Sequence record: OL631479.1
Direction: 5' to 3' (one strand)
Length of the DNA stretch: 64,000 bases
From: Escherichia phage ECML-10
Below are positions 42,749 to 57,256 of this stretch, piece by piece. The notes under the pieces were generated by a model. It searched no databases. It was not told the DNA's origin and saw only the letters and a list, made by a program, of their open reading frames with translations. Every line of letters starts with the position of its first letter. Position 1 is the first letter of the stretch. Both the position numbers and the translations under genes were made by a program.

Positions 42749-44329
42749 CACACAATTAGCTGCCCGGCTAAAGTGCTGGAAGCACCTATAACACATCTTT
42801 CAACTAAATTTCCCACCACCACAATCACTTACCTCCCACACATGACTGTTTGCTTGTTTAGTGAGCAGTCATGCCTTGACATTCTTGCCTATCCTGATAA
42901 AATTAAGTTCTTCTCTTTTCTTTTACCGAGTAATTCGGGTTTTCTGTTCTCTTCGGTTTGAAGGGGTATGGAGATACACCTGAGTGAACAGGGTGAACAA
43001 CCGAACATTTGGCTATGGCATTAGCATGGCGAAGCGGACGGGTGACGAAAGAGGGGCCGGAGGACACCAGTCACTGCCATATGATATATGGGTGATAACC
43101 TGAAGAGTCTGAATAAGTGTTTAAGTACCAGTCAGAGGAAAAGGTGAATGGTAGCCGAAGGGGGAGGGGGTTTCTTGTATCTTTAATTTGTATATTATGT
43201 ATACATTCGTAAACCAATCTCATCTGAATCTGTTTACCACACAAAGTGGATAGAGACAAATATTACCTATTAAACTTGAATTATTTATAGAAAATACTAC
43301 AACACTACTTAAGTATTTGATTTTACACACAAATCCTGCAGATATTCACCCCCCATATTTAACATACTTGTAACATATTCCATACTCTACCTGACCGATC
43401 AACTCACCCAACTACATCCTCCATATTTCCCCTGTCTGTACTACCCCTGCCCAGCCGGGAGTCCCGTCATATCTGGCTTTCCAGCAAATATCACACCCAC
43501 AAATATCATTGCCTGAAGAGGGTTTCATCCCATAATACATGCCTTACCTGAAGAGCGCTTCATATACCCCGTAAATTTTTTAATTGACACCCTCCCCGCC
43601 GCCGGAGGGGGTTGGCTTTTCCCACACAGACCCGAAGAGCCAGCCAGAAATATCTGAACAGGTCCAGCTATGCCACGATTTTGACCTGACCTACAGGAGT
43701 GCTTCCCTGTCAGGAGCCGGTAGCGACTGGAGTGCTGCCAGGCGGACGAAATGGGAATACTTCTCATTCTTATAATAATTCTCAAATATCGAGGCAGTGA
43801 GGCAAATTAATAGGTGAGGCCGTTCACACAGTGGCACAACATTTGCAACCTATCTTGTGTGGGGGAATGAGAATACCTATCATTGTGAGAATAGTTATCA
43901 TTACGGGCAATTTAACATAATACCCATTATGCGCACCACTGGCGATCCATACAGGGATTGATAACATGAGTTACTGTTTATGCATATAACAATTATATTT
44001 CTTACTATTTGTGTGGGATATAGTTAGCAGCCAATAGATTAGATATTGACCTGTAGACTTCTGACCGTCCAGACGTCTAAACGCCCACACAACAAGGCTT
44101 ATACATACATCGCTGAATGTAAACAGGGCCGCAAAAATGCTACCATACCAGATTGTAAATTTTTCATACAGCACTTGACAAAGAGGAGAAAAACTTGTCT
44201 GACACTTTAGACACAATAGTGACATAATGGTGACACACTGGGCATACTCAACACACTGGATACAATAACAGTTGTTACTATTGCATGCTTCACTGTTCAC
44301 GTATAGATTGTTTACACAGAGATGATAAG

Positions 44330-45869: not shown

Positions 45870-46080
45870 AATGTTTTCCTCTCTTCTGGTTGTTGTGTGG
45901 GCACTTTTGCCCCTTCAAGATAAATGTTACCCCACCACCTGGCAGATGTCAACGGTTTTTATAGTTCTTATATGACAGGCAGGCCCGGTGATTGTCTCCC
46001 CCCGTCGCCAGGTGCCTGCCGTGTAATAAGTATAACAAAAAACAGGACCATTGCAAGCCCTGTTTTCTAGTTAATAAGGA

Positions 46081-47394: not shown

Positions 47395-47470
47395 GATTTT
47401 TATCCTCTTTGTGGTTGGTGGGGCTTGTTGCCCCCATTTGATTTATATATTACAGTCTTATATGGTCATG

Positions 47471-47704
47471 TCAACTATTTTCAAAAAATTTTTCTGCTGT
47501 GATATTTTTCCCGGTAGGGTTCGCTACTTTTAAAATTCTATCATGCACCGGACGCCCGAAAGAATAAGATCCGTATACAGTAAACCAATAATTGCCGTCA
47601 GGCTGTACTATTACCGTCGCATATGGTACGCCTTTTTCGTTTTTGCTGACAAAATAGATCACATTGCCATTAATAGCCTCGGCGCGTTTAATTTGTTCCA
47701 TCAT
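47471..47704 (-). CDS. hypothetical protein (77 aa)
   Basis: SD AGGTGA; 5' leader hairpin GGGGCC-GAAAA-GGCCCC upstream. Confidence 0.55.
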   Translation of the reverse strand: MMEQIKRAEAINGNVIYFVSKNEKGVPYATVIVQPDGNYWFTVYGSYSFGRPVHDRILKVANPTGKNITAEKFFENS

Positions 47705-48871: not shown

Positions 48872-48974
48872 TTTGTTTCTCCTTTCTGGTTTTTGTGTTG
48901 GTGGGGATTAGCTCCCCGTTGATTATTATTATCCATATTTCGGACCGGATTGCAACACCCCGGAAGAAAAATTT

Positions 48975-49008
48975 TTTGAAAAAGTTAGGCCCCCAGGGAT
49001 CGGGGGCC
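48975..49008 (-). terminator. rho-independent terminator
   Basis: GGCCCCC-AGGGATC-GGGGGCC; minus-strand reading followed by TAACTTTTTCAAAAAATTTTTC. Confidence 0.55.
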
Positions 49009-53795: not shown

Positions 53796-53957
53796 TCAAC
53801 CATTAGTTAAAATTATTTTTGCCCCTGCCAGGTTAACCATCATTTTTTCGTACTCTTCTTTATGTTCCAACGCTCCCGCCATAGCCTTTTCAACCAGGGC
53901 GATAGCCTCAGCGTCATTAATAGCTACATTTTCCAGGGGGATTATATTACCTTTCAT
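53796..53957 (-). CDS. 53-aa hypothetical protein
   Basis: SD GGGGAGGT before ATG 53957; below track cutoff. Confidence 0.4.
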   Translation of the reverse strand: MKGNIIPLENVAINDAEAIALVEKAMAGALEHKEEYEKMMVNLAGAKIILTNG

Positions 53958-54149
53958 TTTTGTACCTCCCCTTCAATTGTTACCTATCCTATAGCATAGG
54001 CCCACCAGGTTTACAAGCCTTCATTCTCTCCTGCCTGGTCAGTTAGGTCCTGCCAGGCTGGCCCCGCCAGGTTGCAGCGGTTAGCGCATCAGGTTAGAAA
54101 AATTTTTTGAAAAGTGTTGACAGCGGCCCCGCCAGGTGGCACAATATAC

Positions 54150-54400
54150 CTATCGAAAGGACGGCAGGCACCGGTGACGGGGGAGACAACCACCGGGGAT
54201 GGGCGCTGCATAAAATGAGAACGGTTATCATTATCATTTAAAAATTTATGCAAAAAATCCTTGCTTTCTTTGTCCTGTGTGATACTATAATAACAAGCCG
54301 GGGCAACAGGGGCCGGGAGACAATCACCGGGCCTGCCCGTTATTCTGCAAACGAGAATGATTATCATTCAAAATTCTAAATGAGAACTCCTCGCATTTAA
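54150..54400. repeat. two copies of a duplicated noncoding unit carrying Fur-box-like palindromes
   Basis: GGGAGACAA(C/T)CACCGGG and ...GAGAA(C/T)G(G/A)TTATCATT... occur twice; GAATGATTATCATTC is a perfect 15-bp palindrome. Confidence 0.5.
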
Positions 54401-54419
54401 TAAATTTAATTAGCATGCT

Positions 54420-54960
54420 AATTACCCTCCGTAACAATTTCCTATAAAACAGTATCCCATAAAATATTCCCATATAGAAATTTTAAAAATCCATTTCTGA
54501 AAACGAAAAATCGATTTCGTCCCCAAAAATTTCAGGTCGAGATCCGGAACGATTTCCAGAAAATCCGATTCAGAAAACGAAAAACAGATCGAGTACTGAG
54601 AAATTTATCGAGAAAAATTTTCAGAAAATCCAAGCCATGAAATGAAAAGTAGATCGAGTACTTGGAAAGCTGCACCGCAACTTCAAGATAGTGGTTAGAT
54701 TGTTACCATAGAAGGTTAAGGGCAAGTGGAGGAAGTTCTAGTAGAGGGAGGTTAGCATGTGTGGGAAATCTATAATGGTGGCCTGGAATATGGTGCAAAC
54801 GATAGGATGAGTTATTCAGCTTGTCGCGCCTACTCTGAAAAATCCATTTTAGTTTTCGATCCATTTTCTGATTTTCTAAGAATTTTAAAATATCCAGCCC
54901 GGTGAAATATCAAAAGGAGGAAATCCATTTTAGAAATCCCCCTTACACTTGATATGCCAG
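54420..54960. repeat. AT-rich iteron-dense noncoding region
   Basis: Repeated GAAAATCC, TTCAGAAAACGAAAAA, AGATCGAGTACT and AAATCCATTTTAG motifs; no credible ORF. Confidence 0.55.
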
Positions 54961-54973
54961 GAATTTTCAAGTA

Positions 54974-55303
54974 TCAGCTGTCTTTGTTTTTAGGTTTGTA
55001 CATGCGTAAAGGTATGGTCTTTGTAACATTCCATTTCCTCAATCCTTCCCAGCTCCAGTTGTGGGCGTGGTATCCGGTTATGCATGCACTACTGGAGTGA
55101 TCGTAAGCATAAGAGAACGCTAAGCGCACCAGGTGGGGCCAGTCCTTCCATGGTTGTGGACCGTAAGCTTTTCTCCAACACCGACACAAACTAAATGTCT
55201 CAAGGATAGGAAGGATAACAAACCCATACACTGTCACCAAAATAGTCAGTGCAATGATTGTCAGGAACACATACCCTGCAGTTGAAATGATGATCTCTGT
55301 CAT
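54974..55303 (-). CDS. membrane protein (N-terminal TM helices)
   Basis: SD AAAGGGGA before ATG 55303; ISTAGYVFLTIIALTILVTVYGFVILPIL. Confidence 0.55.
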   Translation of the reverse strand: MTEIIISTAGYVFLTIIALTILVTVYGFVILPILETFSLCRCWRKAYGPQPWKDWPHLVRLAFSYAYDHSSSACITGYHAHNWSWEGLRKWNVTKTIPLRMYKPKNKDS

Positions 55304-56744: not shown

Positions 56745-56797
56745 AGTGCTCCCTCTCTCAATCGTTGTGGTGACTATACCATCTCAAAAACCAGCTG

Positions 56798-57256
56798 TCA
56801 ACACTTTTTGTACTCCACCACGATAATATTCATATCAAAAGTGGCAAGGTTAATAACGTCCTCTACGTGCTCCCACTTCAAACCGCCTATGCCGCACCCG
56901 ATCTTAGGGATGTAGAATGGTAAAGTCGATCCACTGAATACCTCATTGACTAGCTCAAAGCCTTTCAGGATTGAGAAATATTCAGCATTAGGCCCTGGGT
57001 AGAACTGAGTATACAGATTGATTCCGTAGACAATACCTCTCGGAGATAAGTGCTCCCATCGGGAGAACGCACCCAGTTTACTTAGGCAACCATATCTAGT
57101 CTCTTTGTCAGCTGCCAATGCTTGAGGGAACTCACGGGAAATCTGTTTTGCTATCCCCTTGCCCATTGTGTGGAAGCAGTTACAACCGTGGATCAGGTGA
57201 CCAGCACCGCTCTTAAAAAGGGAGATTAAATCTCCCTCTACAGTATCAATAATCAC
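56798..57256 (-). CDS. macro-domain protein (ADP-ribose binding/processing)
   Basis: EGDL, HLIHGCNCFHTMGKGIAKQI and PKIGCGIGGL match macro-domain motifs; start set to GTG 57256 (SD AGAGGAG). Confidence 0.6.
   Translation of the reverse strand: MIIDTVEGDLISLFKSGAGHLIHGCNCFHTMGKGIAKQISREFPQALAADKETRYGCLSKLGAFSRWEHLSPRGIVYGINLYTQFYPGPNAEYFSILKGFELVNEVFSGSTLPFYIPKIGCGIGGLKWEHVEDVINLATFDMNIIVVEYKKC

What the first reader, a model, noticed from the sequence alone, without database searches (positions are those of the whole stretch)
54420..54960. AT-rich iteron-dense region between two minus-strand blocks
About 540 bp without ORFs is packed with short direct repeats: GAAAATCC at least five times, TTCAGAAAACGAAAAA twice, AGATCGAGTACT(G/T)G twice, AAATCCATTTTAG twice, and the palindrome AATTAGCATGCTAATT at its left edge. 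It lies between the 3' end of the right-hand minus block (54974) and the promoters of the left-hand minus block, so it is a candidate replication origin, terminator cluster or packaging (pac/cos-like) site.
Basis: seen in the sequence. Interest (0 to 1): 0.6.

Follow-up and report, generated by a model that had tools for sequence, protein, structure and literature searches.

The report
Conserved noncoding hub: iterons plus Fur boxes
The repeat-rich stretch is real and is the right half of a 1-kb gene-free control region shared by all rV5- and phi92-like phages, most likely their replication origin and clearly not the packaging end; it carries host iron-regulator (Fur) binding-site look-alikes that nobody seems to have described.

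Summary
The window is a Vequintavirus (rV5-like coliphage). The finding lies in a 1,016-bp gap (53958-54973) between two leftward gene blocks. The repeats are real but were miscounted. The true units are three 62-74-bp iterons (54468-54668) and a cluster of AAATCC and AAATATC boxes (54834-54945).

The gap is noncoding. Its modules are more conserved than the flanking genes. The same order of modules recurs in five Vequintavirinae lineages and two Stephanstirmvirinae genera:
- two or three rightward sigma-70 promoters, pointing against the neighbouring genes;
- short leaders carrying a GAGACAAUCACC motif;
- 1-6 palindromes at a 29-bp period that match the published Fur-box consensus;
- an easily melted AT-rich stretch;
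- exactly three iterons spanning about 140 bp;
- phased short boxes.

The physical genome end (459-bp terminal repeat, 43741-44199) lies 10.7 kb to the left, so a pac/cos reading fails. The terminal repeat does carry the same Fur-like boxes, in both subfamilies.

The best explanation is a transcription-activated, iteron-type replication origin (confidence 0.4). Rivals are a transcriptional boundary or regulatory hub, and a T5-style injection-stop region (the hub sits about 8% from the end). No experiment or paper settles the function.

The parts
53988..54016 (-). Weak putative promoter (TTGTAA-17-TATAGG) for the first gene of the left block (ATG at 53957).
   Evidence: Read from the sequence. 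It is below the threshold of the scan. Better minus-strand promoters occupy the same place in other genera.
54001..54141 (.). Cluster of GC-rich CCWGG motifs. GGCCCCGCCAGGT occurs at 54060 and 54125, with variants nearby.
   Evidence: Five matches in the window against 0.44 expected. One copy forms the spacer of promoter P1.
54096..54145 (+). Promoter P1. It has a UP element AGAAAAATTTTTTGAAAAGTG, a -35 TTGACA (54117), a 17-nt spacer, TG, and a -10 CACAAT (54140-54145). It points right, against the neighbouring genes.
   Evidence: Scan score 10/12 with TG. The same UP plus -35 sequence recurs at two minus-strand sites (47495, 56808); the UP part alone also matches on the + strand at 48965.
54152..54210 (+). 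Leader U1, carrying the motif GAGACAACCACC (54183-54194).
   Evidence: It is a paralogue of U2. Its hairpin fold has a z-score of -2.8.
54214..54232 (.). Fur-box-like palindrome 1 (AATGAGAACGGTTATCATT).
   Evidence: It matches the E. coli Fur consensus at 16/19, against 0.02 such sites expected by chance in the window.
54261..54288 (+). Promoter P2. It has TTGCTT, a 16-nt spacer, and (TGa)TACTAT, an extended -10. The start site is predicted near 54295.
   Evidence: Assigned by position-for-position homology with the P2 promoters predicted in every other genus. In the window itself it scores below the scan threshold.
54295..54345 (+). Leader U2, carrying the motif GAGACAATCACC (54317-54328). 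This is the most widely conserved piece of the gap.
   Evidence: Window 54313-54404, which holds most of U2 and the two Fur-like boxes after it, is the only part of the gap matched in other genera, at 72-86% identity. Columns ACAAnCACC..TG are invariant in 16 sequences. The structure is inconclusive.
54350..54397 (.). Fur-box-like palindromes 2 and 3 (54350-54368 and 54379-54397), 29 bp apart.
   Evidence: The phage consensus AATGAGAATnATTCTCATT equals the published Xanthomonas Fur-box consensus (PMC1790865).
54408..54423 (.). Perfect 16-bp palindrome AATTAGCATGCTAATT. It was seen only in the Vequintavirus sequences read here.
   Evidence: FV3 has one change in it.
54395..54494 (.). The least stable 100-bp stretch of the gap (24% GC). 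It is a candidate DNA-unwinding element.
   Evidence: It is the 4th least stable 100-bp window of the 64 kb.
54468..54529 (+). Iteron 1, a degenerate copy ending in ..GAAAACGAAAAATCGATTTCG.
54542..54603 (+). Iteron 2 (..AAAATCCGATTCAGAAAACGAAAAACAGATCGAGTACT).
54607..54668 (+). Iteron 3. It begins with a UP-like AGAAAAATTTTCAGAAAATCC and ends in AGATCGAGTACT.
54669..54830 (.). Less conserved spacer of ordinary composition.
   Evidence: Conservation is 0.88-0.95 here, against 0.95-1.0 in the modules. The ORFs in it are broken in FV3.
54834..54945 (+). Right-hand box cluster. It holds AAATCCATTTTAG twice (54840, 54921), GATCCATTTTCT, and AAATATC twice (54888, 54905).
   Evidence: Conservation is 0.97-1.0. 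Equivalent arrays of AAATATC(A) at 10-13-bp spacing sit at the same place in all genera.
43741..44199 (.). Direct terminal repeat (the physical genome ends). It carries three palindromes of the same family, at 43750, 43866 and 43884.
   Evidence: Published termini are in PMC6563267 and PMC6658697.
45972..46055 (-). Third copy of the promoter-plus-leader module. It has TTGCAA-17-TATACT followed by ..GGCAGGC..GAGACAATCACC..GCCTGCC, in the 5' leader of a minus-strand gene.
   Evidence: Its fold has a z-score of -2.55.

Best explanation
The finding is the core of a conserved, gene-free control region that most likely serves as the phage's origin of DNA replication, of the transcription-activated kind.

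Proposed mechanism:
1. Host RNA polymerase starts at two sigma-70 promoters (P1 at 54117-54145, P2 at 54261-54288) that point rightwards, against all neighbouring genes.
2. It transcribes short non-coding leaders, passes an array of Fur-box-like palindromes, and enters an easily melted AT-rich stretch (about 54395-54494).
3. Beyond that stretch lie three long iterons (54468-54668), followed by phased short boxes (54834-54945).
4. The iterons would be bound by a lineage-specific phage protein that bends or wraps about 140 bp of DNA.
5. Transcription would open the AT-rich DNA or provide the primer for the phage's T7-like primase-helicase and polymerase.
6. The Fur-like boxes would let the host iron regulator, or a protein with the same specificity, gate that transcription.

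What is shown: the anatomy, its conservation, its noncoding nature, and its distance from the genome ends. What is inferred: protein binding, transcription, priming and any role of Fur.
For: - The gap is noncoding. In six Vequintavirus genomes its modules are more conserved (0.95-1.0) than the flanking genes (0.91-0.97).
- The same order of modules recurs in Mydovirus, Certrevirus, Seunavirus, a Serratia phage, Phapecoctavirus and Justusliebigvirus, although the flanking genes belong to different PHROG families.
- Every lineage has exactly three iterons, 63-78 bp apart (48-90 bp in ESCO13). The distance from the first to the third is 131-142 bp, even in Stephanstirmvirinae, where the iteron sequence is unrelated. 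This fits a lineage-specific binding protein working on a constrained scaffold.
- The Vequintavirinae iteron core is AATACG-N18-GATCGAG(A/T)AC with a fixed 18-nt spacer. It occurs nowhere else in the 64 kb.
- Rightward promoters are predicted at the same positions in every genus. A third, TG-extended promoter sits just before the iterons in Mydo and a Salmonella phage. No conserved ORF lies downstream of them on that strand in the gap.
- Segment 54354-54653 is the 4th least stable 300-bp segment of the window.
- rV5 encodes a T7 gp4-type primase-helicase, and its origin was not located by skew analysis (PMC3606486).
Against: - There is no experimental evidence of any kind, and no paper in the held library describes the region.
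- No initiator-like gene is adjacent. The neighbours have no known domains and differ between genera.
- The window's gap holds no DnaA-box or IHF consensus.
- GC skew at third codon positions does not differ significantly between the two sides (p = 0.17). Its sign is opposite to that expected for an origin here.
- The region has no similarity to plasmid origins.
- A spacing of 65-75 bp between iterons is unusual for known iteron origins.
- The same palindromes and AAATATC boxes also lie at the genome end. This suggests a function tied to the ends rather than to replication alone.
Confidence: 0.4

Rival explanations
1. The region is a transcriptional boundary and regulatory hub, not an origin. 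It separates two blocks of early genes. The rightward promoters would make small RNAs that collide with, or are antisense to, read-through from the right block. The palindromes would be operators for Fur or a phage repressor. The iterons and boxes would be binding sites for a phage regulator that times early gene expression.
For: - P1 shares its UP element and -35 with minus-strand sites at 47495 and 56808.
- The promoter-plus-leader module also occurs as a normal 5' leader of a minus-strand gene at 46 kb.
- The palindromes form operator-like arrays with a strict 29-bp period.
- A second conserved RNA candidate (RNA1) lies in the same place in other genera, with one covarying base pair.
- In Seunavirus and Mydovirus the last Fur-like box lies over the upstream region of a third promoter.
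Against: - This reading gives no natural role to three long iterons at a fixed 140-bp span, or to the AT-rich stretch.
- There is no consensus RNA structure for the leader. Rfam gives no match.
- No target complementary to the conserved loop was found above chance.
- There is no convincing terminator on either strand.
Confidence: 0.25
2. The region is a T5-style injection-stop or staging element. DNA entry, or expression, would pause at this hub after the first 8% or so of the genome has entered. That segment carries about 30 small early genes. Host Fur bound at the hub and at the terminal repeat would play the role proposed for DnaA in T5.
For: - The hub lies 10.3-11.2 kb from the left physical end. 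That is about 7.5-8.3% of a 135-137-kb genome.
- In Schickermooser it lies 13.7 kb from an end, about 9%.
- The T5 iss is a 1.2-kb untranslated region at 7.9% from the left end. It is full of repeats and palindromes, is better conserved than the neighbouring ORFs, carries host-factor boxes, and shares repeats with a second noncoding region nearer the end (bioRxiv 10.1101/866236).
- Here the hub and the terminal repeat share Fur-like boxes in two subfamilies.
Against: - Two-step injection is known only for T5-like siphoviruses.
- It is not known which end of these myoviruses enters the cell first.
- The terminal repeat is 0.33-0.46 kb, not 10 kb.
- The ten largest ORFs of the left block have no domains resembling T5 A1, A2 or dmp.
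- Both sides of the hub carry promoter-like sites of the same family.
Confidence: 0.1
3. The region is a cluster of terminators for the right-hand minus-strand block.
For: - The region directly follows the stop codon at 54974.
- In Seunavirus each iteron, read on the minus strand, has a short AT-rich hairpin followed by TATTTTTT.
- The scan gave one terminator-like hit at 54530-54493.
Against: - One hit against 2.3 expected from shuffles, and that hit has only 3 G-C pairs.
- The hairpin-plus-T-run is not conserved in Certrevirus or in iterons 2 and 3 of the window.
- The apparent compensatory changes are explained by T-rich then A-rich low-complexity sequence.
Confidence: 0.05
4. The region is a packaging (pac/cos) site or genome terminus.
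For: AAATATC boxes and the palindromes are shared with the terminal-repeat region, so a terminase or end-binding protein could in principle also bind here.
Against: - The termini map to 43741 and 44199 (PMC6563267; PMC6658697).
- No public record shows a repeat boundary here.
- The one record that starts inside the iterons (EC152) simply continues at its other end, with no terminal repeat.
Confidence: 0.03

Closest known systems
Phage T7 primary origin (tandem promoters phi1.1A and phi1.1B followed by an AT-rich region, about 15% from the left end). Recalled from established knowledge, not tested here.
   Same: Both have two tandem promoters firing into an AT-rich segment. Both lie near the left end of a genome with short direct terminal repeats. 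Both phages have a gp4-type primase-helicase (for rV5, per PMC3606486).
   Different: The promoters here are host sigma-70 type. They point against the neighbouring genes. Long iterons, Fur-like boxes and phased short boxes follow them, and T7 has none of these.
Iteron origins of lambda, P1 oriR and theta plasmids
   Same: Both have direct repeats next to an AT-rich, easily melted segment. The repeat sequence varies with lineage while the layout is kept.
   Different: The repeats here are 62-79 bp long and 63-78 bp apart, against about 19-22 bp for the known origins. There are always exactly three. No initiator gene is in cis, and the window holds no DnaA or IHF sites. There is no sequence similarity to plasmid origins.
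T5 injection stop signal (Repeat Region 3; Davison, bioRxiv 10.1101/866236)
   Same: Both are untranslated regions of 1-1.2 kb, about 8% from the left end. Both are crowded with repeats and palindromes. Both are more conserved than the surrounding ORFs. Both carry boxes for a host DNA-binding protein and share repeats with a second noncoding region nearer the end.
   Different: The boxes here are Fur-like, not DnaA boxes. The hub is not inside a long terminal repeat. No A1 or A2 homologues were detected. The host phage is a myovirus with no evidence of two-step entry.
Fur box (9-1-9 form; Xanthomonas consensus AATGAgAATcATTctCATT, PMC1790865)
   Same: The phage palindrome consensus AATGAGAATnATTCTCATT is identical to it. 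Of 76 half-sites, 27 are TGAGAAT and 9 are the classical TGATAAT. Matches to the E. coli 19-mer step in the 6-nt ladder expected from the hexamer-repeat form of the consensus.
   Different: The boxes lie in a virulent phage. They are not over an obvious -35 or -10 element. They form arrays of 1-6 at a 29-bp period and also occur inside the terminal repeat. Binding by Fur is untested.

Membership tests
Iteron-type replication origin | Several direct repeats (iterons) clustered at one locus | tested here: met
   There are three copies at 54468-54668, and three in every lineage examined. The core is unique to this locus in the 64 kb.
Iteron-type replication origin | An adjacent AT-rich, easily unwound segment | tested here: met
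   Segments 54395-54494 and 54354-54653 each rank 4th least stable in the window.
Iteron-type replication origin | A cognate initiator gene in cis or overlapping | tested here: not met
   The flanking proteins have no Pfam domains and belong to different PHROG families in different genera.
Iteron-type replication origin | Host factor sites (DnaA boxes, IHF) | tested here: not met
   The window's gap has no TTWTNCACA and no WATCAANNNNTTR. Certrevirus and Mydo have only a box overlapping the -10 of P2.
Iteron-type replication origin | Replication starts here (copy-number peak, bubble, or autonomous replication) | not testable with these tools
   This needs marker-frequency sequencing or an origin-trap assay.
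Transcription-primed phage origin (T7 or T4 oriF/oriG type) | Promoter(s) directed into an AT-rich region, with no gene to express downstream | tested here: met
   P1 and P2 lie on the + strand. No conserved + strand ORF follows them in the gap. The AT-rich stretch lies directly downstream.
Transcription-primed phage origin (T7 or T4 oriF/oriG type) | An RNA-DNA transition or R-loop at the site | not testable with these tools
   This needs mapping of nascent strands.
Packaging site or genome terminus | Coincides with the physical ends or a terminal-repeat boundary | tested here: not met
   The ends are at 43741 and 44199 (PMC6563267; PMC6658697).
T5-type injection stop region | A conserved untranslated repeat region about 8% from the leading end | tested here: inconclusive
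   The distance is 7.5-8.3% from the left end. Which end enters first is unknown.
T5-type injection stop region | Lies within a long terminal repeat that carries the pre-early genes A1, A2 and dmp | tested here: not met
   The terminal repeat is 459 bp. No matching domains were found in the ten largest ORFs of the left block.
T5-type injection stop region | Paired DnaA boxes | tested here: not met
   No DnaA boxes are present. Fur-like boxes are present instead.
Fur box | A 19-bp 9-1-9 inverted repeat matching AATGAnAATnATTnTCATT | tested here: met
   There are six copies with at most 4 mismatches in the window, against about 1 expected. All lie at two loci. There are 38 copies in 12 lineages. 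The consensus equals the published one.
Fur box | Bound by Fur-Fe2+ and conferring iron-dependent control | not testable with these tools
   This needs EMSA, ChIP, or infection of a fur mutant.
Intrinsic terminator cluster | A G+C-rich stem followed by a T run | tested here: not met
   There is one weak hit against 2.3 expected.
Structured small RNA (for the GAGACAAUCACC leader) | A conserved secondary structure supported by covariation | tested here: inconclusive
   RNAalifold found no consensus structure. Single-sequence folds have z-scores from -2.8 to +0.5. Rfam gives no match.

The most novel reading that the evidence does not exclude
The hub and the terminal repeat form a pair of cis-elements read by the host iron regulator Fur. 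Through this pair, rV5- and phi92-like phages would stage genome entry or the start of replication according to the iron status of the cell. This would be a myovirus counterpart of the T5 injection-stop system, with Fur in the place proposed for DnaA. Similar Fur-type boxes are scattered through the intergenic regions of many unrelated environmental phages.
Probability: 0.12. Interest if true: 0.8.

Novelty: new variant of a known kind. Interest (0 to 1): 0.55.

Why it matters
rV5-, phi92-, PVP-SE1- and CR3-like phages are widely used in typing, biocontrol and therapy. Their origin of replication and early control circuits are unknown.

This analysis defines a 1-kb cis-acting region that is better conserved than the genes around it, and it gives exact coordinates for each module. 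If the region is the origin, it can be tested directly and is useful for engineering, for example in origin-trap vectors or replication-defective phages.

The Fur-box arrays are the more surprising part. They occur both here and inside the terminal repeat, in two subfamilies. If Fur binds them, a virulent phage would be reading host iron status at its genome ends and at its control hub. No paper in the held library reports this.

Tried and rejected
- Rfam searches, at gathering and at E-value thresholds, on the window and four related loci gave nothing. A tRNA search of the window gave none.
- RNAalifold on 16 leader sequences gave no consensus structure. I therefore do not claim a structured RNA.
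- I first read apparent compensatory hairpins inside the iterons as evidence for RNA or single-stranded DNA hairpins, or for terminators. Once the iterons were aligned, the pattern proved to be a fixed 18-nt T-rich then A-rich core, and I dropped that reading.
- GATC/Dam-SeqA clustering as an origin hallmark did not hold up. GATC is common across the whole window. It is only modestly enriched in the arrays of Vequintavirinae and is absent from those of Stephanstirmvirinae.
- The ICP1 origin lead was uninformative. The origin was mapped only to 'near 60 kb', and no comparable gap exists there.
They gave only 5 true relatives.
- Homology searches against E. coli genomes found nothing.
- A search for a target complementary to the conserved leader loop gave chance-level results.
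- The GC3-skew comparison of the two sides was not significant.
- The EC152 record starts inside iteron 3, but its other end continues the region without a terminal repeat. The cut is arbitrary.

Full report
**Identity and setting.** The window is a Vequintavirus, an rV5-like myovirus of E. coli. The 1.5 kb around the finding is 99% identical to phage MaxTheCat, and 121 phage records match it. Genes run on the + strand from about 3 to 41 kb and on the minus strand from about 45 kb onward. The finding lies in a 1,016-bp gap, 53958-54973. On its right is the stop codon of a minus-strand gene (54974-55303). On its left is the start codon of the next minus-strand gene (53957). Public annotations place inconsistent small 'hypothetical' ORFs in this gap.

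**Check of the observation.** The repeats exist, but the counts were partly wrong.
- Exact GAAAATCC occurs twice in the region, and the window total of three is at chance level.
- The core AAATCC occurs six times, all on the + strand, against 0.17 expected.
- AGATCGAGTACT and AAATCCATTTTAG each occur exactly twice and nowhere else in the window. TTCAGAAAACGAAAAA is exact only once. The 16-bp palindrome is at 54408-54423.
- These short matches are pieces of three long direct repeats, at 54468-54529, 54542-54603 and 54607-54668.

Only the left part of the region is AT-rich. Segment 54354-54653 is 31% GC and is the fourth least stable 300-bp segment of the 64 kb.

The gap is noncoding. In six Vequintavirus genomes, every ORF in it is either broken by a stop or frameshift in at least one genome or shows flat substitution counts over the three codon positions. 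The neighbouring real gene shows 17/11/38. Despite being noncoding, blocks 54061-54660 and 54841-54930 are 0.95-1.0 conserved. The flanking genes score 0.91-0.97 and the spacer 54661-54840 scores 0.88-0.95.

**Not a terminus.**
- Korf et al. reported 458-bp terminal redundancies for EdH4 and HdK5 and opened their records at the ends they observed (PMC6563267).
- Position 1 of EdH4 maps to window 43741.
- Other records begin at 43741 or end at 44199.

The physical ends therefore lie 10.7 kb to the left of the finding. The 'non-coding' box in the rV5 paper is that terminal region, not this one. The skew analysis in the same paper did not locate an origin (PMC3606486).

**Conserved architecture.**
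- A sensitive search showed that only window 54313-54404 is recognisable at the DNA level outside the genus. It was always unannotated there.
- Reading the loci showed the same order of modules inside a comparable gap of roughly 1-1.3 kb. The lineages were Phapecoctavirus, Justusliebigvirus, Mydovirus, Certrevirus, Seunavirus, a Serratia phage and three metagenomic relatives.
- The flanking proteins are of unknown function and belong to different PHROG families in different genera.
- The cis-region is therefore the constant and the genes around it are not.

**Modules in window coordinates.**

1. *Promoter P1* is TTGACA-17-(TG)CACAAT at 54117-54145 on the + strand. Its UP element and -35 recur at two minus-strand sites in the window (47495 and 56808).

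2. *Promoter P2* is TTGCTT-16-(TGa)TACTAT at 54261-54288. It is weak by the consensus rule in the window. It aligns position for position with clear P2 promoters in every other genus.

3. *A leader after each promoter* carries the nearly invariant motif GAGACAA(U/C)CACC. A third copy, with its own promoter, lies on the minus strand at 46055-45972 as the 5' leader of an ordinary gene. Most copies can fold into an imperfect hairpin that presents the motif in the loop. Structure is therefore unproven.

4. *Palindromes* at 54214, 54350 and 54379.
   - Across 12 lineages there are 38 copies with the consensus AATGAGAATnATTCTCATT, arranged at a strict 29-bp period with 1-6 copies per hub.
   - This consensus is identical to the Fur-box consensus derived for Xanthomonas campestris (AATGAgAATcATTctCATT). 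That paper shows its consensus to match the Shewanella, Bacillus and (after a 3-bp shift) E. coli consensus sequences (PMC1790865). Fur boxes of Acinetobacter look alike (PMC3055841).
   - Against the E. coli 19-mer, the window sites score 16/19 and 15/19, with matches stepping in a 6-nt register. Sites at this level are expected 0.02 times per window.

5. *The AT-rich stretch* at about 54395-54494.

6. *Three iterons.* Aligned over five Vequintavirinae lineages, the core is AATACG-N18-(C/A)GATCGAG(A/T)AC with a fixed 18-nt spacer. In most lineages (not Certrevirus) an A5T6 tract precedes it. Stephanstirmvirinae have an unrelated iteron sequence. Every lineage nevertheless has exactly three copies, and the first-to-third distance is 131-142 bp.

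7. *A less conserved spacer*, followed by arrays of short boxes. AAATCCATTTT-type and AAATATC(A) boxes lie at 10-13-bp spacing just before the stop of the right-hand gene.

**Link to the genome end.** Within the 64 kb, all six matches to the palindrome (at most 4 mismatches, about 1 expected) fall in two places. Three are in the hub and three are in the terminal repeat, at 43750, 43866 and 43884. The first of these starts 9 bp in from the physical end. AAATATC boxes also cluster beside the repeat. In Schickermooser (Phapecoctavirus, 329-bp repeat) the repeat again holds two such boxes. A near-perfect classical Fur box lies about 680 bp before it. The hub lies 10.3-11.2 kb from the left end here and 13.7 kb from an end in Schickermooser.

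**Interpretation.** The iterons, the melting-prone stretch, the conserved promoters aimed into them with nothing to express, and the lineage-specific repeat sequence on a fixed scaffold all point to a replication origin. The type would be transcription-activated or transcription-primed. This suits a phage with a T7 gp4-type primase-helicase (PMC3606486).

I put this at 0.4 for these reasons:
- Nothing experimental exists.
- No initiator gene is adjacent.
- DnaA and IHF sites are absent from the window's gap.
- Third-position GC skew gives no support.
- The motifs shared with the terminal repeat hint at an end-related role.

A regulatory or boundary role (0.25) explains the promoters, leaders and operator-like arrays, but not the iterons.

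The T5 injection-stop region is a striking formal parallel. It is 1.2 kb, untranslated, 7.9% from the left end, crowded with repeats, better conserved than its ORFs, and equipped with host-factor boxes. It also shares repeats with a second noncoding region (bioRxiv 10.1101/866236). Membership fails on the long terminal repeat, the DnaA boxes and the A1/A2 genes. I give this reading 0.1.

**Novelty.** Searches of the held library found no description of this region, of its RNAs, or of Fur boxes in virulent phages of this kind. The kinds of element are known: iteron and promoter origins, and Fur boxes. The combination and its pairing with the terminal repeat appear to be new.

Noticed in passing
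window 43741-44199: The physical genome end lies inside the window. It is a 459-bp direct terminal repeat within a 2.5-kb gene-free stretch between convergent gene blocks. Three Fur-box-like palindromes lie in it (43750, 43866, 43884). AAATATC boxes lie at 43486, 43501, 43648 and 43784.
   Followed up: partly
window 45972-46055 (minus strand): A third copy of the promoter plus GAGACAAUCACC leader module lies between two minus-strand genes. It is followed by a second promoter (TTGACA..TAACAT). The module therefore also serves as an ordinary 5' leader.
   Followed up: partly
L004 2380-2495, L005 2310-2430, L006 2320-2440 and equivalents: Other genera carry a second conserved noncoding RNA candidate ('RNA1', ..GCCACCCCACGGCGAAAAGGCGGGGCUAAC..GGUGGAUCGCCGGUAG..) between P1 and P2. 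The consensus fold has 16 pairs, and one pair covaries AU/GC 5:5. It has no Rfam match. The window lacks it and has a duplicate of the RNA2-type leader in its place.
   Followed up: partly
IMG/VR loci L008-L127: The exact 18-mer ATGAGAATGATTMTCATT occurs at least 120 times in unrelated environmental viral contigs. The sites are mostly intergenic. Their flanks extend the palindrome to TGCAAATGAGAATGATTCTCATTTGCA. They lie next to phage genes such as portal and terminase. Fur-type boxes may be common in phage genomes.
   Followed up: partly
window 54096-54122, 47469-47495 (-), 56794-56808 (-), 48965-48982 (+): A family of promoter-like sites shares the UP element plus -35 sequence AGAAAAATTTTTTGAAAAGTGTTGACA. 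Iteron 3 begins with a near copy of the UP part.
   Followed up: no
window 47755, 53821, 54060, 54125, 55128: The motif GGCCCCGCCAGGT, which contains a CCWGG Dcm site, occurs 5 times against 0.44 expected. One copy is the spacer of P1. Similar GC-rich CCAGG spacers occur in promoters of other genera.
   Followed up: no
plasmid record CP057073.1 (L259): A complete rV5-like genome (137,565 bp, circular) is deposited as a plasmid of a cultured cattle E. coli isolate. This is either carry-over or a carrier state.
   Followed up: partly
phage records MG0656xx: Between 16 and 19 records named 'Campylobacter phage' are 94-97% identical to this coliphage region. The host label is probably wrong.
   Followed up: no
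L005, L128, L131 (about 2070-2260), L004 and L133 (about 2010-2340), L129 (2082-2291): In most other genera a small + strand ORF (61-88 aa) with its own promoter precedes P1 inside the hub. The three ORF types appear unrelated to one another by eye. Vequintavirus has none.
   Followed up: no
window 54414-54443 and 54730-54759: A 30-nt inverted repeat, 70% complementary, brackets the three iterons. It may be chance.
   Followed up: no
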